DNA of 64,000 bases. It comes from a virus. A program made the translations under genes and the position numbers. Of the stretch, positions 33,011-60,528 are shown one piece after another; the first letter of the stretch is position 1; each line of letters begins with the position of its first letter. Location: the IMG/VR virus record IMGVR_UViG_3300045391_000362, one strand, 5' to 3'. The notes beneath the pieces were generated by a model. The model worked only from the letters and a program-made list of their open reading frames with translations, did not search any database and was not told the origin of the DNA.

Positions 33011-33523
33011 ATGAAAACTAAAACCTGTGCGTCATGTAAGCATGACCAACCAATAGCTATGTTCGCGCGCAAGGAATACACAACCAAAAAGGGTTATGTC
33101 AATTCCTATGTGCTTCGTGTCTGCGATATGTGCCGAGATTCGGATCATTATGGGGAGAAATATTGCTCTAAGTGTGGAGGATTAAAGCCATTAGACCAGT
33201 ATTTCCAGCGTAAGGATGCCCCTAACCAGAAATATCAGGCAGCGTGTAAGAGCTGTGTCAGTGTCTACGGCAAAGAATACCGAGCTAAGAAACTATACGG
33301 CATCACTTATGACGAAATTCAGAGTATCAAGGCAGAGCAGGAAGACTCCTGTACCATCTGCGGAGAGATTACACAACTCGTGGTAGACCATAACCACACT
33401 ACTGGACAAGTTAGAGCTTTGCTGTGTGATCTATGTAATAGAGGTTTGGGGTATTTTAGAGACAATCCTGAACTCCTTATGAGAGCTAGTAACTATTTGC
33501 TAGAGAAAGGCTACGCAGGGTGA
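33011..33523 (+). CDS. Endonuclease VII-type (HNH-like) nuclease
   Basis: VVDHNHTTGQVRALLCDLCNRGLGYF matches the recombination endonuclease VII motif; Cys-rich N-terminus. Confidence 0.75.
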   Translation: MKTKTCASCKHDQPIAMFARKEYTTKKGYVNSYVLRVCDMCRDSDHYGEKYCSKCGGLKPLDQYFQRKDAPNQKYQAACKSCVSVYGKEYRAKKLYGITYDEIQSIKAEQEDSCTICGEITQLVVDHNHTTGQVRALLCDLCNRGLGYFRDNPELLMRASNYLLEKGYAG

Positions 33524-35016
33524 AACTCTACTTCCAAGGAGCACATCTGCCCACCTATCGGAACCTTATTAAGGAAACCGGGGTGGGCAGTAGCTCCCTG
33601 TCCTATTTAGGACTACGTAATCGTACTAACTTTGGTAAACCGTGGTTGGTGTCCAAGTATTTCCCAGAGGGACATTCCCTTTTTGTGGATTCAGGATGTC
33701 AGACCTTGAATAACGCCAAAGAGCAGAAGTACACAAATGAAGAATTAAAGGAAATAGCGCAGCATTACTATTCATGGATAGAACAGAACATCGATAACAT
33801 CGAGATCTATTCAGAGTTCGATGCTCTGCAATTGGGCAAGTCATTTATTGAAAGCCATCGTGAATCTGCACGAGAGCTGATGTTCGACAAGTTCCTGCCT
33901 ATTTGGAGAGAAGATGACGGACTAGATGAGCTTTACCGTTTAGGGGAGAAGTTCGGCCGTGTGGGAGTCTCACAGACCCATCTAAAGGGCAGAGATCTTA
34001 TCCCTACGCTCAACCGAATGGCTGATGCTGGAATAGAACTCCATGGTTTGGCTATGACAAAGCAAGATATAATGCAAGCGGTTAGATGGACATCGGTCTC
34101 ATCAACCTCTTGGGTTTCTCCTCAGAAATACGGAGCCACATTCGTCTGGTCCCACAACCAATTGAAGAGCTATTCCAAGGAACAGAAGGAACAGGCCAGA
34201 CGAAAGGAAAGATTCGTCATAGAGGCTGCCGGATTCGACGTAGAAAAGATACTAGGAGAAGATCCTAAGGAACTTCTACGTCTTTCATTGTGGTCCTGGT
34301 CACAATTTGTTGACTCAATTAATGATAAAAAAGCAAGAGGAGTAACTACATCCATGATTTCGCATGGTGACGACTTTACGGAAAACTATGATGACGCAGT
34401 TGGTGGTGTTATAGAGCCAGTGCGGAACAGAGTATCAACTCCGGTGCCGAGAGATCCGGACCGAAAAGTTGTAATACCGCTCATAAATCTAGAGGAGAAT
34501 CTAGAAAAGAGACGTAATGCCCGGACTGGTGAATTGGAGACTATTTCTTCACCTAAGCTGAAGAGTCGCAGCGATTCTATGCGTCTTTGTGATACTTGTT
34601 TTCTAGCTGCAAAATGCCCCATGTTTGAAGAAAACTCAACTTGCGCGTATGATATCCCCATCACTATCCGCACCAAGGAACAAGCGCAGGCACTTATGGA
34701 TACCATTGTGGAGATTCAGACGCAACGTGTTCTATTCATGAAAATGGCTGAGGATGCGGAAGGTGGCCACGCTGATCCTATTCTTTCCAACGAATTGGAT
34801 CGCCTGGTAAAGATGATGAAGACCAAGAGTGACATGGAACAGGAGGGCTTTAGCCTTACTGTTACTGCTAAGCAGAACGGTCAGCCTGGAATCGTTGAAT
34901 CTATCTTCGGACCCATGGGTGACATGAGTAGATTACGAGAACTTGAGGCTCCTCAAGATCCTCAAAATATTGCAAGCCAATTAGGCATAATTGATGCCGA
35001 AGTATACGAAAACTAG
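33520..35016 (+). CDS. hypothetical protein (weak TGT/DpdA-like features)
   Basis: 498 aa, GTG start; LFVDSGCQ, HGLAMT and SVSSTSW loosely recall transglycosylase TIM-barrel motifs; C-terminal CDTC-x5-C-x9-C; no Walker A, so not a terminase. Confidence 0.6.
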   Translation: MKLYFQGAHLPTYRNLIKETGVGSSSLSYLGLRNRTNFGKPWLVSKYFPEGHSLFVDSGCQTLNNAKEQKYTNEELKEIAQHYYSWIEQNIDNIEIYSEFDALQLGKSFIESHRESARELMFDKFLPIWREDDGLDELYRLGEKFGRVGVSQTHLKGRDLIPTLNRMADAGIELHGLAMTKQDIMQAVRWTSVSSTSWVSPQKYGATFVWSHNQLKSYSKEQKEQARRKERFVIEAAGFDVEKILGEDPKELLRLSLWSWSQFVDSINDKKARGVTTSMISHGDDFTENYDDAVGGVIEPVRNRVSTPVPRDPDRKVVIPLINLEENLEKRRNARTGELETISSPKLKSRSDSMRLCDTCFLAAKCPMFEENSTCAYDIPITIRTKEQAQALMDTIVEIQTQRVLFMKMAEDAEGGHADPILSNELDRLVKMMKTKSDMEQEGFSLTVTAKQNGQPGIVESIFGPMGDMSRLRELEAPQDPQNIASQLGIIDAEVYEN

Positions 35017-55265: not shown

Positions 55266-55340
55266 CGGGTACGAGGAAGATGGTAATCCGCCTGTTTTGG
55301 GAACAGGATAAACGGGGTTCGATTCCCCGGTACCCGACCA
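55266..55340 (+). tRNA. tRNA-Pro (TGG)
   Basis: Hand-folded cloverleaf: acceptor CGGGTAC/GTACCCG, anticodon loop TTTGGGA, T arm CGGGG-TTCGATT-CCCCG, encoded CCA. Confidence 0.8.
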
Positions 55341-55419
55341 TGAGTGAGATCACATATGAACACACCCTCAACAATTGATAAGAATGGTGCTCATCATATA
55401 GACTTGCTCATCGCTTAAT

Positions 55420-55491
55420 GGGACTGTAGCTTAGTTGGAAAAGCGACTGATTGAAGCTCAGTAGTCGGCGGTTCGATTCCGCACTGTCCCA
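55420..55491 (+). tRNA. tRNA-Phe (GAA), irregular
   Basis: Anticodon loop TTGAAGC, perfect D and anticodon stems, but U6-U67 and G49-A65 mismatches. Confidence 0.55.
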
Positions 55492-55577
55492 CCCTTGCCT
55501 ATTCGTAGGTTTTATGTCATCGTTGGGTGCATAGATTAAACAGAGCCTAATGTGAAGTTAGGTTAGCCCTTCCCAAT

Positions 55578-55649
55578 GGCTCAGTAGCTCAATGGCAGAG
55601 CGTCCGTCTCATACGCGGATTGTTGTAGGTTCGATTCCTACCTGAGCCA
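55578..55649 (+). tRNA. tRNA-Met-type (CAT)
   Basis: Acceptor GGCTCAG/CTGAGCC, anticodon loop CTCATAC, T arm GTAGG-TTCGATT-CCTAC. Confidence 0.8.
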
Positions 55650-55651
55650 CT

Positions 55652-55724
55652 GCACGGATAGAGAAACGGTGTCTCACAAGCCTCATAAGCTTGCAAGTAG
55701 TAGGTTCGACTCCTACCTGTGCCC
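55652..55724 (+). tRNA. tRNA-like, CAT anticodon (Met or Ile2 type), irregular acceptor
   Basis: Perfect D, anticodon (loop CTCATAA) and T arms, but only 6 acceptor pairs in register and a 6-nt variable loop; possibly degenerate. Confidence 0.4.
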
Positions 55725-55791
55725 CCACGTTACTTTACAAGCCCTATCTTATGTAGTACACTCCAGTTACTGAAATCGACTAGGAGGAACT

Positions 55792-56145
55792 GTGGGAGAT
55801 AGGGCAAACGTTTATATCCACGAGAATGGTCGTCCGGGCGTCTACCTGTACACGCACTGGGATGGCACGTATCTGCCACGTCTGATTAAGGATGCCTTAC
55901 AGACTGGACGTGCACAAAACCGCTTGACCGATACTGCATACTTGACAAGAATCCTGTTCGAAGAGACGATTAAGAACAGCTTGGGCGAGGAAACAGGATA
56001 CGGCGTCTCAGCGGAAGTACAGGATGGTGCGGACCGCATCGTTGATATAGATACATACAACTGCATAGTGACCCTCAAGGGTTTTCCGTATGATTGGGAT
56101 ACCGTTCCGGTTGACCCATACGCCTATGAGGATGAGATCTGGTAA
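55792..56145 (+). CDS. hypothetical protein
   Basis: 117-aa ORF (GTG start after AGGAGG) between tRNAs. Confidence 0.55.
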   Translation: MGDRANVYIHENGRPGVYLYTHWDGTYLPRLIKDALQTGRAQNRLTDTAYLTRILFEETIKNSLGEETGYGVSAEVQDGADRIVDIDTYNCIVTLKGFPYDWDTVPVDPYAYEDEIW

Positions 56146-56182
56146 TTAAGTCTCCTGAGTATGAGGTTAAACTGCTCACAAT

Positions 56183-56253
56183 GCCCTATTAGTTTATTGG
56201 TAAAACCTCTGCCTTCCAAGCAGGTGAGGCCGGTTCGATTCCGGCATAGGGCT
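56183..56253 (+). tRNA. tRNA-Gly (TCC)
   Basis: Acceptor GCCCTAT/ATAGGGC, anticodon loop CTTCCAA, T arm GCCGG-TTCGATT-CCGGC. Confidence 0.8.
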
Positions 56254-56315
56254 CGCATACGCTCTCGGCCAAAAGGAGAGAAGTCACACTAAAGTACACG
56301 GTGTGGCGTAGCTAT

Positions 56316-56386
56316 TCCCCATTCGTATAATGGCAATACATGCGCCTCTGGAGCGTAGAATCGAAGTTCGAATCTTTGATGGGGAG
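56316..56386 (+). tRNA. tRNA-Gln (CTG)
   Basis: Acceptor TCCCCAT/ATGGGGA, anticodon loop CTCTGGA, T arm CGAAG-TTCGAAT-CTTTG. Confidence 0.75.
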
Positions 56387-56523
56387 CTGGACGCCAAAGC
56401 TCGGTGCACAAGAGCACGGATAAGCCGGATGCTAGTTTATTGTTTTCTAGATAAGCAATAGATGAATACAAGGCCGAAACGTGGGTTTAAGCCACGCTAC
56501 GTCCAACCACTTGACAAAATCTA

Positions 56524-56594
56524 TCCCCCTTGGTGTAATGGCAGCACAGGAGCCTTTGGATCTCCTAGTTTTGGTTCGATTCCAGACGGGGGAG
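56524..56594 (+). tRNA. tRNA-Gln (TTG)
   Basis: Acceptor TCCCCCT/CGGGGGA (7-66 mismatch), anticodon loop CTTTGGA with a C31-U39 mismatch. Confidence 0.65.
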
Positions 56595-56627
56595 CGCGCG
56601 AGTCCTCCTAAGGGATAAAACACCCTA

Positions 56628-56657
56628 TTGACAGTACGCCCTAGGCCAGGGTAAGCT
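56628..56657 (+). promoter_or_regulatory. possible promoter inside the tRNA island
   Basis: TTGACA - 18 nt - TAAGCT upstream of tRNA-Asp. Confidence 0.3.
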
Positions 56658-56737
56658 GTACGGGAAAAGCCGATGGTACCGAGGCTGCTCGTCCTCCATC
56701 TAAAAAGGTTCGTGTCCTACCTTAAAGGACACTTCTT

Positions 56738-56810
56738 GCTCTCGTAGTGTATGGGCGTAGCATTGCACTCTGTCACAGTGTAGGGGCGGGTTCGAATCCC
56801 GTCGAGAGCG
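56738..56810 (+). tRNA. tRNA-Asp (GTC)
   Basis: Acceptor GCTCTCG/CGAGAGC, anticodon loop CTGTCAC, T arm GCGGG-TTCGAAT-CCCGT. Confidence 0.8.
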
Positions 56811-56952
56811 CTTTAACAACTTCAAACGATATAAACCTGCACGGGGACTATATCACCCACTTAGCCGGGCCGAGGGATAGAGCTAAGTCTGCTGAGGACA
56901 CAGAGAAAGTTCTCCAGATTCATTATTTCCTGCACGGTCATAATGAATCTTT

Positions 56953-57023
56953 GCTCCCATAGTGTAATGGCAACATACCAGACTCTCAATCTGGAGTTAG
57001 GGGTTCAATCCCCCTTGGGAGTA
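56953..57023 (+). tRNA. tRNA-Glu (CTC)
   Basis: Acceptor GCTCCCA/TGGGAGT (G1-U72), anticodon loop CTCTCAA, T arm AGGGG-TTCAATC-CCCCT. Confidence 0.7.
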
Positions 57024-57192
57024 CGTTCGGCACCTTCACAGGTTCCAAAGGTAGGACCATGCCCCTGTCGGGGGTTCGAGTGGATACCGTTAGCGGAAAT
57101 TGGAATACGCTGCCTGCGATAGATCAAAAAGTAAGTGGGGCTATTTGGTGCCTAGTTCCCGCATAAGCCTAAAGGTAGCTCCTTTAGGTTCT

Positions 57193-57264
57193 GTCCCCAT
57201 CGTATATCGGTTAGTACACAAGACTTTCAATCTTGAAGACGGAGTTCAACTCTCCGTGGGGGTA
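57193..57264 (+). tRNA. tRNA-Glu (TTC)
   Basis: Acceptor GTCCCCA/TGGGGGT, anticodon loop CTTTCAA, T arm CGGAG-TTCAACT-CTCCG. Confidence 0.7.
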
Positions 57265-57491
57265 CGTTTGGAACTAGTCATAGATAGCACCCCACGTATA
57301 CTCGAATAGACTGGATAGGGTATACCAGCATAGAAGAGGCGCAGACAAGGGAAGGGCCTCCAGGTGGGAGTACCGCTTAGCTCTGGCAGGCTAAGTAGGC
57401 ACGAGGGATGAGACCACCAGCCACTTTTTCTAGTACAATAGGAATTGCTATAGCGATCACTTAGTGATTTCTTTCTAGAAAGGTTTAACAA

Positions 57492-57806
57492 ATGGCTTTT
57501 ACATATGTACTGCCTAGCAGAGTAAACACTCTGAACGTAGGCGATCAAGTTGTATTTGCTGTTGCAGCAGATGGACACGCATACGTGTATCCAACTCCTA
57601 CAGCATCCGGTGCAAAGTACCCAACAGTTCGTGCTGTTTATCCTGCTACTGTTCCACCTGGAACTGACAGTGGTGGTAACCCTGTTACTTCTGCTTCTGT
57701 TCTATGGACAGTTCAGCTAAATGGTGCATCTCAGTTCAGTCAGCCTATTGATTTTACAATCAATGCTACAACCGACTGGGTTGCTACTGCGACTGGTACT
57801 GCGTAA
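57492..57806 (+). CDS. hypothetical protein
   Basis: 104-aa ORF with its own stem-loop downstream. Confidence 0.55.
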   Translation: MAFTYVLPSRVNTLNVGDQVVFAVAADGHAYVYPTPTASGAKYPTVRAVYPATVPPGTDSGGNPVTSASVLWTVQLNGASQFSQPIDFTINATTDWVATATGTA

Positions 57807-57814
57807 GTTTTACA

Positions 57815-57844
57815 GTGGGCTATGGATTTAGGTTCATAGCCCAC
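57815..57844 (+). terminator. stem-loop (terminator-like)
   Basis: 10-bp stem GTGGGCTATG/CATAGCCCAC. Confidence 0.5.
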
Positions 57845-57910
57845 TCACAGCTTCAGTTTTATTGCTATCATGAGTGGGATACTTAGCCCTACTCTTGCAA
57901 GGAACTGAAA

Positions 57911-58726
57911 TTGGCTATTTACACTCGACACATTCCTGAGGTTGCCTCCGAGACTATCGGTGGACGCCTAGGAAGACACGTTAATCATGATTCCCGCTCA
58001 TTGGACTATAAGTTCGATGGATCTGGATTCACTGCGACATCTATTCGTCACACTCGCTACATTCCTGTATTAGACCAGGGTGACCTAGGATCTTGTACTG
58101 GAAATGCGGCGACAGGAAATCTAGGAACTGGTGACTTCTTCGCTACCATTCCTACTGCGGTAACTCTTAACGAGGATGAGGCTGTAAAGCTCTACAGCTC
58201 TGCTACAGCCCTTGATGGCTATGCAGGCGAGTATCCTCCCACCGACACTGGTTCAGACGGTCTGAGCGTCGCCAAGGCAGCCCAGAAGGCTGGTTTTATC
58301 TCTGGTTACCAGCACATCACGTCTCTTGCGGACGCTGTTGCCGCTCTCCAGCTAGGACCAATCATTACGGGTGTCAACTGGTATTCATCATTTGACAATC
58401 CAAGCAAGACTGGTAAGGTATCTATTACCAAGAGCGCTTACGTCCGTGGAGGACATGAGTTCGTTCTTGATGAGGTAGACGTTACCAACAAGCTTATCGG
58501 AGCTACAAACTCCTGGGGAGATTCCTGGGGACTTAAGGGACGCTTCTACTTCTCCTTTGCTGACTATGAGCGCTTGCTTGCAGAGCAGGGAGATGCTACA
58601 GTGTTCGTGAAGTTGAGCACTCCGACTCCTCCAACACCGCCTGGTCCTACACCTAGTGTTGACACGGATGTACTTGCTGCGTATACTGCACTAAAGGCAT
58701 GGGCCATTAAGAACAACGTAGCCTAG
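57911..58726 (+). CDS. papain-like cysteine peptidase (C1 family)
   Basis: TTG start; DQGDLGSCTGNA (Q...C), GGHEFVL (H), NSWGDSWGLKGRFYF (N-S-W-G-x2-W-G) in papain order; Pro/Thr linker at the C-terminus. Confidence 0.7.
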   Translation: MAIYTRHIPEVASETIGGRLGRHVNHDSRSLDYKFDGSGFTATSIRHTRYIPVLDQGDLGSCTGNAATGNLGTGDFFATIPTAVTLNEDEAVKLYSSATALDGYAGEYPPTDTGSDGLSVAKAAQKAGFISGYQHITSLADAVAALQLGPIITGVNWYSSFDNPSKTGKVSITKSAYVRGGHEFVLDEVDVTNKLIGATNSWGDSWGLKGRFYFSFADYERLLAEQGDATVFVKLSTPTPPTPPGPTPSVDTDVLAAYTALKAWAIKNNVA

Positions 58727-58764
58727 ATTTGACGCCTGCTATGGGGCGTGATACCATAGCTAAT

Positions 58765-58837
58765 GCCCTTATAGCTCAGTGGCTAGAGCAGTCGCCTTGT
58801 AAGCGACAGGTCGTGGGTTCGAATCCTACTGGGGGCT
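58765..58837 (+). tRNA. tRNA-Thr (TGT)
   Basis: Acceptor GCCCTTA/TGGGGGC (two G-U), anticodon loop CTTGTAA, T arm GTGGG-TTCGAAT-CCTAC. Confidence 0.75.
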
Positions 58838-58849
58838 CTCTATTCCAAT

Positions 58850-58921
58850 GCCTCTGAATTTCATTGGTTGAATATCCCCTTGGTACGGGGAAGGTAGAGG
58901 GTTCAATTCCCTCCTGAGGCT
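58850..58921 (+). tRNA. tRNA-Thr (GGT)
   Basis: Anticodon arm TCCCC-TTGGTAC-GGGGA, T arm GAGGG-TTCAATT-CCCTC; U6-U67 acceptor mismatch and weak D stem. Confidence 0.6.
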
Positions 58922-58932
58922 CTTCACAACAT

Positions 58933-59007
58933 GCTCCTGTAGCCCAATTTGGTAGAGGCGTCGGATTCAAGTCCCGAAGGTTCTCGGTTCGAATCCGAGT
59001 AGGAGTA
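58933..59007 (+). tRNA. tRNA-Leu (CAA) with short variable loop
   Basis: 3-bp D stem with Leu-type loop CAATTTGGTAGA, anticodon loop TTCAAGT (A31-C39 mismatch), 5-nt variable loop, A73. Confidence 0.6.
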
Positions 59008-59013
59008 CATAAT

Positions 59014-59086
59014 GGTTCTATAGCCCAATGGTAGAGGCGGCAGATTTAAGTCCTGCAAAGTGTCGGTTCGAATCCGACTAGAACTA
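59014..59086 (+). tRNA. tRNA-Leu (TAA) with short variable loop
   Basis: D loop CAATGGTAGA, anticodon loop TTTAAGT (A31-C39 mismatch), 5-nt variable loop, A73. Confidence 0.6.
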
Positions 59087-59255
59087 CAATGGAGGGGTTG
59101 ATCACCTCTCCTGGATATGGCGGAATATCCTTCTTACGGGGGTAACGCACATCGCTGGTTTAGCAACCTGGGGTAGCACCCAATGTGATGGTATGAGACA
59201 ACGGAGTACGTAAGGATCTCATTGCTGGTAAACTTAAGTCCAGCTATCCACTTAT

Positions 59256-59328
59256 GCTGCTGTAGCCCAAGGGTAGAGGCACTAGTCTTAGGAACTAGCC
59301 AGTGTCAGTTCGAATCTGACCAGCAGTA
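59256..59328 (+). tRNA. tRNA-Leu (TAG) with short variable loop
   Basis: D loop CAAGGGTAGA, perfect anticodon stem CTAGT/ACTAG, loop CTTAGGA, 5-nt variable loop, A73. Confidence 0.65.
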
Positions 59329-59329
59329 C

Positions 59330-59358
59330 TTGACACACCATGTACACCGTAGTACGCT
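59330..59358 (+). promoter_or_regulatory. possible promoter
   Basis: TTGACA - 17 nt - TACGCT upstream of the small membrane gene. Confidence 0.4.
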
Positions 59359-59383
59359 GTTAACAACAGCCGAAAGGAGCAAC

Positions 59384-59599
59384 ATGGACATCGTGTTCGC
59401 AGTTCTGGGATTCCTCGGACCACTTGGTCTGGTGGGACTCTGGATCTTTATTATGATCAACAAGCAGGGTTGGAAGATTGTCCAGATTATAGCGGGTGGC
59501 ATTTTTGCACTCCTTCTGGTAAGCTCCTTCCCACAGCTTCCCCAAGCAGTACATGATGGTGTAGTCAGCGTGACTAAGGCACTGTCAAATAGTAAGTAA
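59384..59599 (+). CDS. small membrane protein
   Basis: ATG at 59384 after GAAAGGAG; two TM spans; the upstream part of the track ORF overlaps tRNA-Leu. Confidence 0.5.
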   Translation: MDIVFAVLGFLGPLGLVGLWIFIMINKQGWKIVQIIAGGIFALLLVSSFPQLPQAVHDGVVSVTKALSNSK

Positions 59600-59614
59600 G
59601 CCCTTCGGGGCCTT

Positions 59615-59685
59615 ATGGCGTTAGTGTAGTGGTAACACGTCGGTCTCCAAAACCGTTATCCAGGGTTCGAATCCTTGACGCCGTG
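59615..59685 (+). tRNA. tRNA-Trp (CCA)
   Basis: Acceptor ATGGCGT/ACGCCGT, D arm GTGT-AGTGGTA-ACAC, anticodon loop CTCCAAA, T arm CAGGG-TTCGAAT-CCTTG. Confidence 0.7.
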
Positions 59686-59731
59686 CGCTCTATATTGTAA
59701 GATACTCACAGTCCCTTCCGAGGGACCTTAT

Positions 59732-59803
59732 TCCCCGTTAGCTCAATGGCAGAGCAGTGAGCTGTTAACTCAAAGGTTGTTGGTTCGAATCCAGCACGGG
59801 GAG
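59732..59803 (+). tRNA. tRNA-Asn (GTT)
   Basis: Acceptor TCCCCGT/ACGGGGA, anticodon loop CTGTTAA, T arm GTTGG-TTCGAAT-CCAGC. Confidence 0.75.
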
Positions 59804-59806
59804 CTT

Positions 59807-59933
59807 GTGTCGATGCGAAGAACCGAGTTACTTCGGAAATAGATGGTTCGATCCCACCCGGCGCTGTGAAAGGCGCTGAACGGCTACCCCTGATCGGGTA
59901 GCTACATACACTTGGTTCGTTCTTTCTAGACAC
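59807..59933 (+). ncRNA. Y-RNA/YrlA-like structured RNA, unit A
   Basis: GTGTC-GAT-GCGA-AGA-ACCGAG...CTTGGT-TCGT-TCTTTCTA-GACAC closing stem; inside a T-arm-like GATGG-TTCGATC-CCACC and two hairpins. Confidence 0.6.
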
Positions 59934-59941
59934 ATTAGATT

Positions 59942-60093
59942 TGACAGCGATGCGTAGATAAGAGATACTTCATCGCAAAGGGAACCACGGGTCGGAGGTT
60001 CGAATCCTCCCCTATCGACTTCTTCGGTAGGTAGCTCAGCGGCGAGAGCAGTGGTCAAAAGAAAAAGACTTTTATCGATTTTTCTAGCTGTCA
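59942..60093 (+). ncRNA. Y-RNA/YrlA-like structured RNA, unit B (contains a circularly permuted tRNA cloverleaf)
   Basis: Outer helix TGACAGC/GCTGTCA, ATAAGAG/CTTTTAT, loop GAT vs TTTTTCTA; 59984-60055 folds as anticodon stem, variable loop, T arm, capped acceptor and D arm. Confidence 0.7.
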
Positions 60094-60106
60094 CGAGTTT
60101 TACAAC

Positions 60107-60215
60107 GTACCGATGCGAAGACCAGGGTTACTTCTAACCAACTAATATAGAGTAGGTCGGTTCGATTCCGCCTTCATGGACTGGTGTCCTTTCCTTGGTC
60201 GCTATTTCTAGGTAC
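60107..60215 (+). ncRNA. Y-RNA/YrlA-like structured RNA, unit C
   Basis: GTACC-GAT-GCGA-AGA-CCAGGG...CCTTGG-TCGC-TATTTCTA-GGTAC; internal GTCGG-TTCGATT-CCGCC arm and GGAC-TGGT-GTCC hairpin. Confidence 0.6.
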
Positions 60216-60233
60216 CTATAATTTCATAAGCTT

Positions 60234-60308
60234 TACCCGATGCGTAGGCCACAGTTACTTCTTCAATTATGGTGAATACAAAGCACTGTAGCCGTTTTTT
60301 CTAGGGTA
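60234..60308 (+). ncRNA. Y-RNA-like mini unit C' (no T arm)
   Basis: TACCC-GAT-GCGTA-GGCCACAGT...ACTGTAGCC-G-TTTTTCTA-GGGTA; keeps TTACTTC but has only about 30 nt inside. Confidence 0.45.
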
Positions 60309-60320
60309 TATATTTTTAGC

Positions 60321-60447
60321 AATACCGATGCGAAGGCAACGGGGTTACTTCTTTCTGATTAAAAGGACGAGTGGGTTCGAATCCCACGCCCGTACTTGCG
60401 GGTGCATGGCGCTAGTAAAACACCTCAAGCCACTATTTCTAGGTATT
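60321..60447 (+). ncRNA. Y-RNA/YrlA-like structured RNA, unit D
   Basis: AATACC-GAT-GCGAAGG...TATTTCTA-GGTATT outer helix; internal GTGGG-TTCGAAT-CCCAC arm and GCCCG/CGGGT hairpin; inner stem register unclear. Confidence 0.5.
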
Positions 60448-60458
60448 CAATTCTTATA

Positions 60459-60490
60459 CCCACCAGATCTACACCCCTGGTGGGTTTTTT
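60459..60490 (+). terminator. intrinsic terminator closing the ncRNA array
   Basis: 8-bp stem CCCACCAG/CTGGTGGG followed by TTTTTT. Confidence 0.75.
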
Positions 60491-60528
60491 CTTCACTAAT
60501 GACGTACCACACTAACAAGGAGGCAGTA

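What the first reader, a model, noticed from the sequence alone, without database searches (positions are those of the whole stretch)
59942..60093. Unit B contains a canonical tRNA cloverleaf circularly permuted at the anticodon loop
Positions 59984-60055 read as follows: ACCAC (anticodon-stem 3' strand), GGGTC (5-nt variable loop), GGAGG-TTCGAAT-CCTCC (T arm), CCTATCG (acceptor 3' strand), ACTTCTT (7-nt cap joining the ends), CGGTAGG (acceptor 5' strand, one G-U), TA, GCTC-AGCGGCGA-GAGC (D arm), A, GTGGT (anticodon-stem 5' strand). Every arm has standard length and pairing, but the order is permuted. The anticodon loop is replaced by the long conserved stem (59942-59983 pairing with 60056-60093). 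Standard tRNA finders would miss it. This is the tRNA-mimic geometry reported for YrlA. The other units (A, C, D) keep only parts of it (T arm plus one or two hairpins), and unit C' keeps none, so the array looks like a graded series of tRNA mimics. Possible roles, all inference, are scaffolds that tether Rsr to nucleases, or decoys for host tRNA-targeting defences or modification enzymes.
Basis: seen in the sequence. Interest (0 to 1): 0.85.

Follow-up and report, generated by a model that had tools for sequence, protein, structure and literature searches.

The report
Phage Y RNA with permuted tRNA fold

Summary
Positions 59984-60055 form a complete tRNA cloverleaf in the order anticodon-stem 3' strand, V loop, T arm, closed acceptor stem, D arm, anticodon-stem 5' strand. 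It sits on a two-helix stalk (59943-59964 pairing with 60069-60092).

- **Not chance.** Re-joined in normal tRNA order, it scores 122.8 in ARAGORN, above all 21 real tRNAs of the window. None of 2000 shuffles gave a call. Among 127,858 re-permuted 72-mers, only this site and three tandem-tRNA junctions scored.
- **Conserved structure.** In eight related Streptomyces-phage-like genomes, 98.6% of pair cells hold. 16 of 35 pairs show compensatory changes, including all seven acceptor pairs.
- **Identity.** It lies 436 nt upstream of, and on the same strand as, a Ro60/Rsr gene. It matches Rfam YrlA below threshold (32.4 bits; the published phage ET08 YrlA scores 37.4).

[quoted passage not shown] So this is an unannotated new member of a known class.

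The likely function, by analogy, is to bind phage Ro60 through the stalk and present a tRNA-shaped module to a partner protein. [quoted passage not shown]

The parts
59943..59948 (+). P1 5' strand (GACAGC) of the terminal stalk; pairs with 60087-60092
   Evidence: 97.9% of cells paired in 8 orthologues. Pair 5/148 changes GC to AU/GU. All six pairs covary in the 40-member family.
59949..59956 (+). Conserved 5' internal-loop motif GAUGCGUA, the presumed Ro60-binding determinant (CGAA-type motif, reads CGUA here)
   Evidence: Invariant in the unit B orthologues apart from U/A at the seventh base, 59955 (GCG[U/A]A). Shared by all five units of the window and, as G(G/A)UGCGNAG, by 40 family members. 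The Ro-binding role is inferred from PMC4201824 and PMC12135203.
59957..59964 (+). P2 5' strand (GATAAGAG); pairs with 60069-60076
   Evidence: 100% of cells paired, 3 of 8 pairs with compensatory changes.
59965..59983 (+). 5' linker with the conserved (A/U)UACUUC motif (59965-59971)
   Evidence: UACUUC is present in all five window units and in nearly all 40 family members. Its role is unknown.
59984..59988 (+). Anticodon-stem equivalent, 3' strand (tRNA positions 39-43); pairs with 60051-60055
   Evidence: 95% of cells paired, 3 of 5 pairs compensatory.
59989..59993 (+). 5-nt variable loop GGGUC (44-48), with C48 as the Levitt partner of G15
   Evidence: G15-C48 is replaced by A15-U48 in L005 (read from the alignment).
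59994..60010 (+). T arm GGAGG-UUCGAAU-CCUCC
   Evidence: The loop is invariant except in one orthologue. G53-C61 is invariant and 2 stem pairs are compensatory.
60011..60017 (+). Acceptor stem 3' strand (66-72), CCUAUCG
   Evidence: All 7 acceptor pairs show compensatory changes among 8 orthologues.
60018..60024 (+). 7-nt cap closing the acceptor stem (A73 equivalent followed by CUUCUU). The predicted RNase P site lies between 60024 and 60025.
   Evidence: The cap is 6-7 nt in the orthologues, with A/G at position 73 and U at -1 in 6 of 8. Cleavage is inferred from M. smegmatis YrlA (PMC4201824).
60025..60033 (+). Acceptor stem 5' strand (1-7, CGGUAGG, with G3.U70) plus U8 A9
   Evidence: UA is invariant. 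G3.U70 is seen only in the window/L027 and GiJojo.
60034..60050 (+). D arm GCUC-AGCGGCGA-GAGC plus A26
   Evidence: The stem is invariant, as in the Rfam YrlA consensus. A14, G18-G19 and A21 are present in all orthologues.
60051..60055 (+). Anticodon-stem equivalent, 5' strand (27-31), GUGGU
60056..60068 (+). A-rich 3' linker
   Evidence: The sequence varies and there is no conserved U33-like position.
60069..60076 (+). P2 3' strand (CUUUUAUC)
60077..60086 (+). 3' internal-loop motif ending UUUCUA
   Evidence: Conserved in all five units. Reads (A/U)UCU(C/A)G in the wider family.
60087..60092 (+). P1 3' strand (GCUGUC)
59806..59934 (+). Unit A: paralogous Y-RNA-like unit (same stalk motifs, T-arm-like hairpin with one mismatch, two further hairpins). 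It starts 2-4 nt after tRNA-Asn.
   Evidence: R1 43.4 bits; fold; motifs.
60106..60216 (+). Unit C: paralogous unit with a T-arm-like hairpin
   Evidence: R1 35.5 bits.
60233..60309 (+). Unit C': short paralogous unit, stalk only, no T loop
   Evidence: R1 41.0 bits.
60321..60447 (+). Unit D: paralogous unit with a T arm and a 6-bp acceptor-like hairpin but no D arm. Its counterpart in GiJojo, pSt2308, BRock, Alone3 and L005 is a second full tRNA-like unit.
   Evidence: R1 40.8 bits here, against 64.6-71.2 in those relatives; sequences.
60458..60496 (+). Intrinsic-terminator-like hairpin (9-bp stem) followed by a U run, closing the tRNA/Y-RNA array
   Evidence: z = -3.9. A hairpin plus T run stands at the same place in the relatives, with a different sequence.
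60529..62115 (+). Ro60/Rsr orthologue (TROVE + vWA), the presumed protein partner
   Evidence: Pfam TROVE E 3e-17. 65-70% identical to proteins annotated 'Ro-like RNA binding protein' or 'RNA-binding protein' in Streptomyces phages. Related to PDB 9L5Y/9KOP phage Ro60 (E 2e-24) and 2NVO Rsr.

Best explanation
Unit B (59943-60092, + strand) is a gene for a YrlA-class Y RNA of a Streptomyces-phage-like virus.

Shown here:
- The RNA folds into a stalk (P1, conserved internal loop, P2) that carries a four-way junction.
- The junction is a complete tRNA cloverleaf opened at the anticodon loop and closed at the acceptor end by a 7-nt cap.
- The nucleotides that make the tRNA L-shape are all present: U8-A14, G15-C48, G18G19 with the UUCGAAU T loop, G53-C61, A9, A26/G44 and G46.

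Inferred from the YrlA, Ro60 and phage phiLo literature:
- The stalk's internal loop (GAUGCGUA opposite UUUCUA) binds the phage Ro60 ring encoded 436 nt downstream.
- The tRNA-shaped module is recognised by tRNA-binding proteins. These would include elbow-modifying enzymes such as TruB and Dus, and an effector such as a host 3'-5' exoribonuclease.
- The RNA would then tether or gate Ro60 during infection.

Inferred more weakly:
- The unit is probably made from the same transcript as the tRNA array and trimmed by tRNA-processing enzymes.
- Its acceptor stem has the canonical 7 bp with U at -1 and A at 73, like M. smegmatis YrlA. RNase P may therefore cut the cap (60024/60025) and the CCA-adding enzyme may extend the new 3' end, giving a two-piece RNA. 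I put that sub-step at about 0.35.
For: - **Structure.** MFE equals the permuted cloverleaf. RNAalifold recovers all six helices unprompted. In 8 orthologues 98.6% of cells pair and 16 of 35 pairs are compensatory, against about 40% paired in slid controls and 0 of 500 shuffles. In 40 family members 95.9% pair and 31 of 35 pairs are compensatory.
- **tRNA-likeness.** ARAGORN scores the re-permuted sequence at 122.8, above all 21 real tRNAs. 0 of 2000 shuffles are called, and it is the only site in the window outside the tandem-tRNA junctions. 35 of 40 family members are also called as tRNA after re-permutation. The Levitt pair covaries in L005.
- **Family.** Rfam YrlA hits 59972-60082 with E 4.4e-5, arm for arm. 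The published ET08 YrlA scores about the same with Rfam (37.4 bits) and is found at full length by the unit B model (42.2 bits, E 6e-9).
- **Context.** The Ro60 gene follows on the same strand. Synteny tRNA-Trp, tRNA-Asn, array, Ro is kept in GiJojo, pSt2308, BRock and Alone3, and the array upstream of Ro is also present in IMG/VR contigs. Model hits lie directly upstream of Ro in the IMG/VR loci that retain upstream sequence and gave hits; L023 and L025 have theirs further upstream.
- **Literature.** YrlA is defined as Ro-binding stem plus V, T, AS and D modules, and occurs in 22 phages. M. smegmatis YrlA has a 7-bp acceptor stem, is cut by RNase P and receives CCA (PMC4201824). The crystal structure is an L-shape, described as 'circularly permuted tRNAs' (10.1101/312249). 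Phage phiLo Ro60 binds phage Y-like RNAs and host PNPase (PMC12135203).
Against: - The Rfam score is well below the family's gathering threshold (32.4 against 69). No relative reaches it either.
- The published 5'-strand motif GNCGAAN0-1G / CGAA is only approximated. Unit B reads GAUGCGUAG (CGUA).
- There are no expression, Ro-binding or modification data for this phage.
- A sigma-70-like match (TTGACA-17-GATACT, 59941-59969) lies inside the 5' strand. If it were used, the transcript would lack P1 and P2.
- A possible A73-U(-1) pair could make the stem 8 bp and change or block RNase P cleavage.
- The effector of YrlA tRNA-like modules is unknown even in the model organisms.
Confidence: 0.85

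Rival explanations
1. A true permuted tRNA gene, as in the red alga Cyanidioschyzon merolae. The transcript would be circularised or ligated at its ends and re-opened at the acceptor cap to give a decoding tRNA.
For: The 3' half lies upstream of the 5' half, joined by a 7-nt linker. All arms have canonical lengths and ARAGORN scores the re-permuted form at 122.8.
Against: - There is no anticodon loop. The anticodon-stem strands continue into 19- and 13-nt linkers and then the P2/P1 stalk, which carries Y-RNA motifs shared with four non-tRNA-like units.
- The base after the 5' strand of the anticodon stem is C, then A, in most orthologues, so there is no conserved U33.
- Bacteria are not known to have the bulge-helix-bulge splicing route (established knowledge).
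- The unit is linked to Ro60.
Confidence: 0.02
2. A tRNA decoy or sponge that works without Ro60. It would soak up host tRNA-targeting toxins, defence nucleases or modification enzymes to protect the phage's own large tRNA set.
For: - The module is embedded in a 21-tRNA array.
- The tRNA elbow is perfectly conserved.
- The acceptor end may become free if RNase P cuts the cap (inference from PMC4201824).
Against: - It lacks the anticodon loop, which is the target of most known anti-phage tRNA nucleases (established knowledge).
- The stalk motifs co-occur strictly with a Ro60 gene across 25 or more loci.
- Nothing here tests binding.
Confidence: 0.07
3. A decayed remnant of two tandem tRNA genes (T arm and 3' acceptor strand of one, 5' acceptor strand and D arm of the next) with no function of its own.
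For: - Tandem tRNA junctions are the known false positives for YrlA models (PMC4201824).
- They do score in my slide test and with R1 (62468-62545, 35.6 bits).
- This is a plausible evolutionary origin.
Against: - No tRNA halves flank unit B.
- The two acceptor strands pair with each other and covary at all 7 positions, and the anticodon-stem strands covary too.
- The score of 122.8 is far above the junction scores of 107.7 or less.
- The unit is conserved across genomes whose Ro proteins are only 65-81% identical.
Confidence: 0.03
4. A DNA-level or coding feature: a promoter (TTGACA-17-GATACT) or the 88-codon minus-strand ORF 59828-60094.
For: A promoter-like match with 10 of 12 consensus bases, conserved in the unit B orthologues. 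The ORF is listed.
Against: - The region holds 2 promoter-like sites, against 1.2 +/- 1.1 expected by chance.
- The -35 hexamer overlaps P1, and P2 lies in the spacer between the hexamers; both helices covary as RNA helices.
- No open frame across unit B is conserved in strand, frame or length among 8 genomes.
Confidence: 0.03

Closest known systems
Mycobacterium smegmatis YrlA (Chen et al. 2014, PMC4201824)
   Same: - Ro60-linked Y RNA from an actinobacterial setting.
- Stalk plus a tRNA-like module ordered V, T arm, acceptor stem-loop, D arm.
[quoted passage not shown]
- A published primer for it contains ACUUCUAA, which resembles the UACUUC motif here.
   Different: - It is a host RNA, not a phage RNA.
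- I could not fetch its sequence to compare directly.
- It comes with one partner RNA (YrlB), whereas here there are five tandem units inside a tRNA array.
Mycobacteriophage ET08 YrlA (Fig. 1D of PMC4201824; here L035:23160-23301)
   Same: - Phage-encoded, about 160 nt upstream of the Ro-like gene gp220 on the same strand.
- Found at full length by the unit B model (42.2 bits).
- Also below threshold in Rfam YrlA (37.4 bits).
- Same D-stem sequence (GCUC/GAGC) and the same UUCGAAU T loop; the T-stem sequence differs.
   Different: - The ET08 acceptor stem-loop has a much longer cap (18 unaligned nt).
- Its anticodon-like stem is shorter and its stalk motifs diverge.
- It is a single copy, not an array, and is not embedded in the tRNA cluster.
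Salmonella Typhimurium YrlA (Rfam RF02553; crystal structure PDB 6CU1, bioRxiv 10.1101/312249)
   Same: The same permuted topology and the same tertiary contacts. The authors themselves describe it as a circularly permuted tRNA with a closed acceptor loop.
   Different: - It has a 6-bp acceptor stem and is not cut by RNase P.
- It has a kinked anticodon-like stem with a conserved UA.
- It belongs to the RtcR-controlled RNA repair operon.
- Unit B has fully canonical arm lengths (7/4/5/5 bp, 5-nt V loop).
Thermus phage phiLo Yrl1/Yrl2 with phage Ro60 (PMC12135203; PDB 9L5Y)
   Same: - A phage Ro60 homologous to the window's protein (E 2e-24).
- Several Y-like RNAs encoded upstream.
- A stem, bulge, stem stalk with a CGAA-type motif.
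- Shown to assemble with host PNPase.
   Different: That paper's main text never uses the term 'tRNA-like' (0 occurrences). It describes two RNAs, not five.
Permuted tRNA genes of Cyanidioschyzon merolae and two-piece (permuted) tmRNA
   Same: The gene order has the 3' half before the 5' half. In tmRNA, a tRNA-like domain with G3.U70 is charged by AlaRS (from my own knowledge).
   Different: - Those RNAs are matured to a free CCA acceptor end with a decoding or tagging function.
- Unit B has no anticodon loop and no tag reading frame.
- ARAGORN finds no tmRNA.
- G3.U70 is not conserved among the orthologues.

Membership tests
YrlA-class Y RNA (Rfam RF02553; Chen et al. 2014) | Encoded within about 4 kb of a Ro60/Rsr (TROVE) gene, on the same strand | tested here: met
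   Unit B ends at 60092. The Ro60 CDS is 60529-62115 on the + strand (Pfam TROVE E 3e-17).
YrlA-class Y RNA (Rfam RF02553; Chen et al. 2014) | 5' and 3' ends pair into a stalk with an internal loop that carries the Ro-binding motif GNCGAAN0-1G (CGAA) on the 5' strand | tested here: inconclusive
   The stalk and loop are present and covary. The motif is a near-match only. Unit B reads GAUGCGUAG (CGUA). Units A, C, D and the unit B orthologues in L006 and L026 read GAUGCGAAG (CGAA).
YrlA-class Y RNA (Rfam RF02553; Chen et al. 2014) | Effector module ordered V region, T arm, closed acceptor stem-loop, D arm, flanked by an anticodon-like stem | tested here: met
YrlA-class Y RNA (Rfam RF02553; Chen et al. 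2014) | tRNA tertiary-contact nucleotides conserved, with compensatory change of the Levitt pair | tested here: met
   U8, A14, G18G19, A21, UUCGAAU, G53-C61 and A26 are conserved (the T loop reads UUCAAAU in L005 only). G15-C48 becomes A15-U48 in L005.
YrlA-class Y RNA (Rfam RF02553; Chen et al. 2014) | Score at or above the Rfam gathering threshold (69 bits) | tested here: not met
   32.4 bits, E 4.4e-5 over 761 nt. The published ET08 YrlA also fails, at 37.4 bits. The threshold therefore excludes accepted phage members.
YrlA-class Y RNA (Rfam RF02553; Chen et al. 2014) | Bound by Rsr/Ro60 in vivo and modified by TruB/DusA | not testable with these tools
   Needs RIP/EMSA and modification mapping.
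Canonical tRNA gene | Contiguous order acceptor, D, anticodon arm with a 7-nt loop, V, T, acceptor | tested here: not met
   ARAGORN and Rfam tRNA give no call at 59942-60093. The arms are permuted and no anticodon loop exists.
Permuted tRNA gene (C. merolae type) | Transcript ends can be joined to restore a 7-nt anticodon loop with U33 and a purine at 37 | tested here: not met
   The anticodon-stem strands run into 19- and 13-nt linkers and the Y-RNA stalk. Position 33 is mostly A and is not conserved.
Tandem-tRNA junction (known YrlA false positive) | Flanked by the missing halves of two complete tRNA genes | tested here: not met
   No tRNA overlaps or abuts the module. The real junctions score 107.7 or less, against 122.8.
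tmRNA (one- or two-piece) | Alanine-identity acceptor stem conserved, together with a tag reading frame | tested here: not met
   ARAGORN's tmRNA search found none. G3.U70 occurs only in the window/L027 and GiJojo; elsewhere it is A-U or G-C.

The most novel reading that the evidence does not exclude
Unit B might not stay a closed Y RNA. RNase P would cut the cap, the 3' side would be trimmed to A73, and CCA would be added. The result would be a two-piece RNA with a free acceptor end still anchored to Ro60 by the stalk.

In this phage the acceptor stem carries G2-C71, G3.U70 and A73, which is the alanine identity set. The RNA could then be charged by AlaRS, as tmRNA is. Alternatively it could serve as bait for toxins that modify tRNA 3' ends, linking Ro60 to the translation or tRNA-surveillance machinery during infection.
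Probability: 0.06. Interest if true: 0.75.

Novelty: new member of a known kind. Interest (0 to 1): 0.3.

Why it matters
It adds an unannotated and unusually tRNA-perfect YrlA to the phage Y RNA catalogue. None of the four annotated GenBank relatives examined (GiJojo, pSt2308, BRock, Alone3) marks these RNAs, and two of them appear to mis-call part of a sister unit as a tRNA.

It also shows that the Rfam YrlA threshold misses a whole actinophage branch: 40 members were found here, often several per genome.

The canonical 7-bp acceptor stem makes this a convenient second test case for the RNase P / CCA processing seen so far only in M. smegmatis. The five-unit array next to a phage Ro60 offers a natural series for asking what the tRNA-like module is for. 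It does not change what is known about the class.

Tried and rejected
- **Rfam at gathering thresholds.** No YrlA call in the window or in 20 related loci. Only the E-value mode shows the match.
- **Close DNA match in known phages.** Megablast of 59700-60600 found only short tRNA-Asn matches. The link to known phages had to go through the Ro60 protein.
- **Fetching M. smegmatis YrlA for direct comparison.** The first primer-derived pattern gave nothing. The second gave one chance hit in a Bartonella coding region with no model match. The published phage ET08 YrlA was used instead.
- **Recent origin from one of the phage's own tRNAs.** The best match is 46 of 66 bases (Thr), which is just the universal tRNA positions. 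Rejected.
- **Alanine identity as a conserved feature.** G3.U70 is not conserved. It looks like a neutral intermediate between G-C and A-U.
- **Minus-strand ORF.** Not conserved.
- **Internal promoter.** Judged coincidental.
- **ACGTACCAC before the Ro RBS as a repeated phage signal.** Only 2 exact copies in the window. Not pursued.
- **Two reviews** (PMC10870794, PMC6047535) are not held.

Full report
**1. What is in the sequence**

The window's right end carries a + strand array of 21 tRNA genes (55266-63330; ARAGORN, Rfam). A 725-nt gap between tRNA-Asn (ends 59804) and an ORF at 60529-62115 interrupts the array. That ORF is a Ro60/Rsr orthologue:
- Pfam TROVE E 3e-17, plus a weak vWA match.
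- 65-70% identical to proteins annotated 'Ro-like RNA binding protein' or 'RNA-binding protein' in Streptomyces phages GiJojo, pSt2308, BRock, Alone3 and LuckySocke.
- Related to the solved Thermus phage phiLo Ro60 (9L5Y/9KOP, E 2e-24) and to D. radiodurans Rsr (2NVO).

The gap holds five units. Each begins with CGAUGCG(A/U)AG...(U/A)UACUUC and ends with UUUCUAG. A 9-bp hairpin plus a U run follows at 60458-60496. The finding concerns the second unit.

**2.

RNAfold of 59984-60055 gives precisely the permuted cloverleaf as both MFE and centroid. The whole unit adds an outer stalk.

Joining 60025-60055, an artificial 7-nt loop and 59984-60017 gives a sequence that ARAGORN calls a tRNA with score 122.8. 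That is higher than any of the window's 21 real tRNAs (106.7-122.4). None of 2000 dinucleotide shuffles is called.

As a positional control I applied the same cut-and-join to every 72-mer on both strands (127,858 sequences). Calls arise only at 59980-59988, peaking exactly at 59984, and at three tandem-tRNA junctions (Leu/Leu, Lys/Lys, Met/Met), which score 107.7 or less.

**3. Comparative evidence**

The order tRNA-Trp, tRNA-Asn, array, Ro is kept in four GenBank Streptomyces phages. The array upstream of Ro is also present in IMG/VR contigs. One of these contigs (L027/L007) is about 98% identical to the window in Ro and identical in unit B.

Eight distinct unit B orthologues align over 152 columns (A1). 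On my hand-written structure:
- 98.6% of the 280 pair cells are standard pairs.
- 16 of 35 pairs have changes on both sides, including all seven acceptor-stem pairs.
- 0 of 500 shuffles reach any measure.
- Slid controls pair at only 39-56%.

RNAalifold, given no structure, returns the same six helices plus one extra A73-U(-1) pair.

The tertiary-contact positions are conserved: U8 A9, A14, G18 G19, A21, A26, UUCGAAU and G53-C61. The Levitt pair switches from G15-C48 to A15-U48 in L005. This is the same covariation Chen et al. used as evidence for YrlA.

The stalk is not one long helix. It consists of:
- P1, 59943-59948 with 60087-60092.
- A conserved internal loop, GAUGCGUA opposite G..UUUCUA.
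- P2, 59957-59964 with 60069-60076, with 3 compensatory pairs.
- A large internal loop below the junction.

**4. What it is**

Rfam's YrlA model (RF02553) aligns to 59972-60082 arm for arm: anticodon-like stem, T arm, acceptor stem-loop, UA, D arm. The score is 32.4 bits and E is 4.4e-5, below the 69-bit threshold.

A covariance model built from A1 (R1) gives the following:
- The unit B orthologues at 146-167 bits.
- Full-length hits of 50-92 bits in the more distant Ro-linked IMG/VR loci searched, in most of them directly upstream of Ro and often several per locus.
- A second full tRNA-like unit (64.6-71.2 bits) at the end of the array in GiJojo, pSt2308, BRock, Alone3 and L005.
- The window's other units at 35-43 bits.

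In the 40-member alignment, 95.9% of cells pair and 31 of 35 pairs covary. 35 of the 40 are called tRNAs by ARAGORN after re-permutation.

As a link to validated members I fetched mycobacteriophage ET08, whose YrlA is shown in Fig. 1D of Chen et al. R1 finds it at full length about 160 nt upstream of Ro-like gp220 (42.2 bits, E 6e-9). Rfam YrlA scores it at only 37.4 bits. The Rfam threshold therefore fails for accepted phage members too.

**5. Comparison with what is known**

- Chen et al. 2014 (PMC4201824) defined YrlA RNAs as a Ro60-binding stem plus a tRNA-like domain ordered V, T, acceptor stem-loop, D. They reported them near Ro60 in 254 bacteria and 22 phages.
- They showed that M. smegmatis YrlA, which has a 7-bp acceptor stem, is cut by RNase P and receives CCA in vivo. 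They noted that YrlB keeps only a T arm and warned that dimeric tRNAs are false positives.
- Phage phiLo Ro60 binds two phage Y-like RNAs and host PNPase (PMC12135203).

Unit B is a new, unannotated member. None of the four annotated GenBank relatives marks these RNAs.

**6. Mechanism**

Shown: the fold, its conservation, and its linkage to Ro60.

Inferred by homology: Ro60 binds the P1/loop/P2 stalk. The L-shaped module is read by tRNA-elbow enzymes and by an effector, possibly an exoribonuclease as in the RYPER complex.

Inferred from layout:
- Unit A starts 2-4 nt after tRNA-Asn.
- In BRock, tRNA-Asn is followed by CUU and then unit B.
- A terminator-like hairpin closes the array.

Together these suggest co-transcription with the tRNAs and release by tRNA-processing enzymes.

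Inferred from the M. smegmatis precedent: the 7-bp stem, U(-1) in 6 of 8 orthologues and A/G73 make RNase P cleavage at 60024/60025 and CCA addition plausible, at about 0.35. The possible A73-U(-1) pair is a caveat.

The window's G2-C71, G3.U70 and A73 mimic alanine identity. Position 3:70 is A-U or G-C in the other orthologues, so I treat it as a neutral intermediate.

**7. Rivals**

- A decoding permuted tRNA is rejected. There is no anticodon loop and no conserved U33, and the stalk motifs are shared with non-tRNA-like units.
- A tandem-tRNA relic is rejected by the covariation between the two 'halves' and by the missing flanking halves. It remains a plausible evolutionary origin.
- No specific phage tRNA is the parent.
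- The minus-strand ORF is not conserved.
- The promoter-like match overlaps covarying helices.
- A Ro-independent decoy role cannot be excluded, but it lacks support and cannot involve anticodon nucleases.

**8. Verdict**

The novelty is that of a new member of a known kind. The modest points of interest are:
- The fully canonical arm geometry.
- The five-unit array inside a tRNA cluster.
- The size of the actinophage branch that Rfam's threshold misses.
- The testable RNase P / CCA prediction.

Noticed in passing
window 59806-60447: Unit B is one of five tandem Y-RNA-like paralogues (A, B, C, C', D) that share the stalk motifs CGAUGCG(A/U)AG...UACUUC and UUUCUAG but differ in their inner modules. 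Relatives keep 3-5 units (L026 has three, BRock and L006 four). GiJojo, pSt2308, BRock, Alone3 and L005 have a second complete tRNA-like unit where the window's unit D has lost its D arm.
   Followed up: partly
L001:2269-2343 (GiJojo) and L004:2274-2347 (Alone3): GenBank annotates tRNA-Arg(cct) and tRNA-Ser(gct) here. Both overlap the 5' half of the last Y-RNA unit (R1 hits L001:2264-2410 and L004:2269-2414). The isotype differs between orthologous sites. The Rfam tRNA model gives no threshold hit at either site and only 30.8 bits in L005. These are probably mis-calls, made possible because GAUGCG can pair with the CGCGUC that follows the T arm.
   Followed up: partly
window 59091-59254 (+): Rfam manA RNA motif (RF01745) just above threshold (57.1 bits, GA 55.2), lying between tRNA-Leu(taa) and tRNA-Leu(tag) inside the tRNA array.
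   Followed up: no
window 59804-59809; L003 about 1915-1925: Only CUU(G) separates the 3' end of tRNA-Asn from P1 of unit A. In BRock, unit A is absent and the same CUU precedes unit B. This suggests the Y RNA 5' ends are made by tRNA 3'-end processing.
   Followed up: no
window 33520-35016 (+): A 498-aa ORF matching PHROG 887 'queuine tRNA-ribosyltransferase' (E 1e-95). It may be a DpdA-type enzyme for 7-deazaguanine DNA modification rather than a tRNA enzyme.
   Followed up: no
window 59941-59969 (+): A sigma-70-like match, TTGACA-17-GATACT (10 of 12 bases), inside the 5' strand of unit B's stalk and conserved in the orthologues. It is probably a by-product of the RNA motifs (UU + GACAGC, and AUACUUC).
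   Followed up: partly
window 60502-60510 and the same position in L001-L006, L026: ACGTACCAC (ACGTACTAC in L026) is conserved between the array's terminator and the Ro60 ribosome-binding site. There is only one other exact copy in the window (5443). It may be a leader or promoter element for Ro60.
   Followed up: partly
window 62468-62545, 58970-59050, about 55616-55692: Tandem tRNA junctions (Lys/Lys, Leu/Leu, Met/Met) behave as weak permuted tRNAs in both the R1 search and the re-permutation test. This illustrates how a YrlA-type module could arise from a tandem tRNA duplication.
   Followed up: partly
L006:6363-6443: An Rfam tmRNA hit (54.2 bits, GA 47) that spans only 81 nt in a related viral contig. 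It is probably a tRNA-like element with an alanine-type acceptor stem.
   Followed up: no
L011, L020, L022, L024, L025, L030: More distant Ro60-encoding viral contigs also carry 2-4 full-length YrlA-like hits each, some more than 1 kb upstream of Ro60 and interleaved with tRNAs. Multi-copy Y RNA sets appear common in these phages.
   Followed up: no
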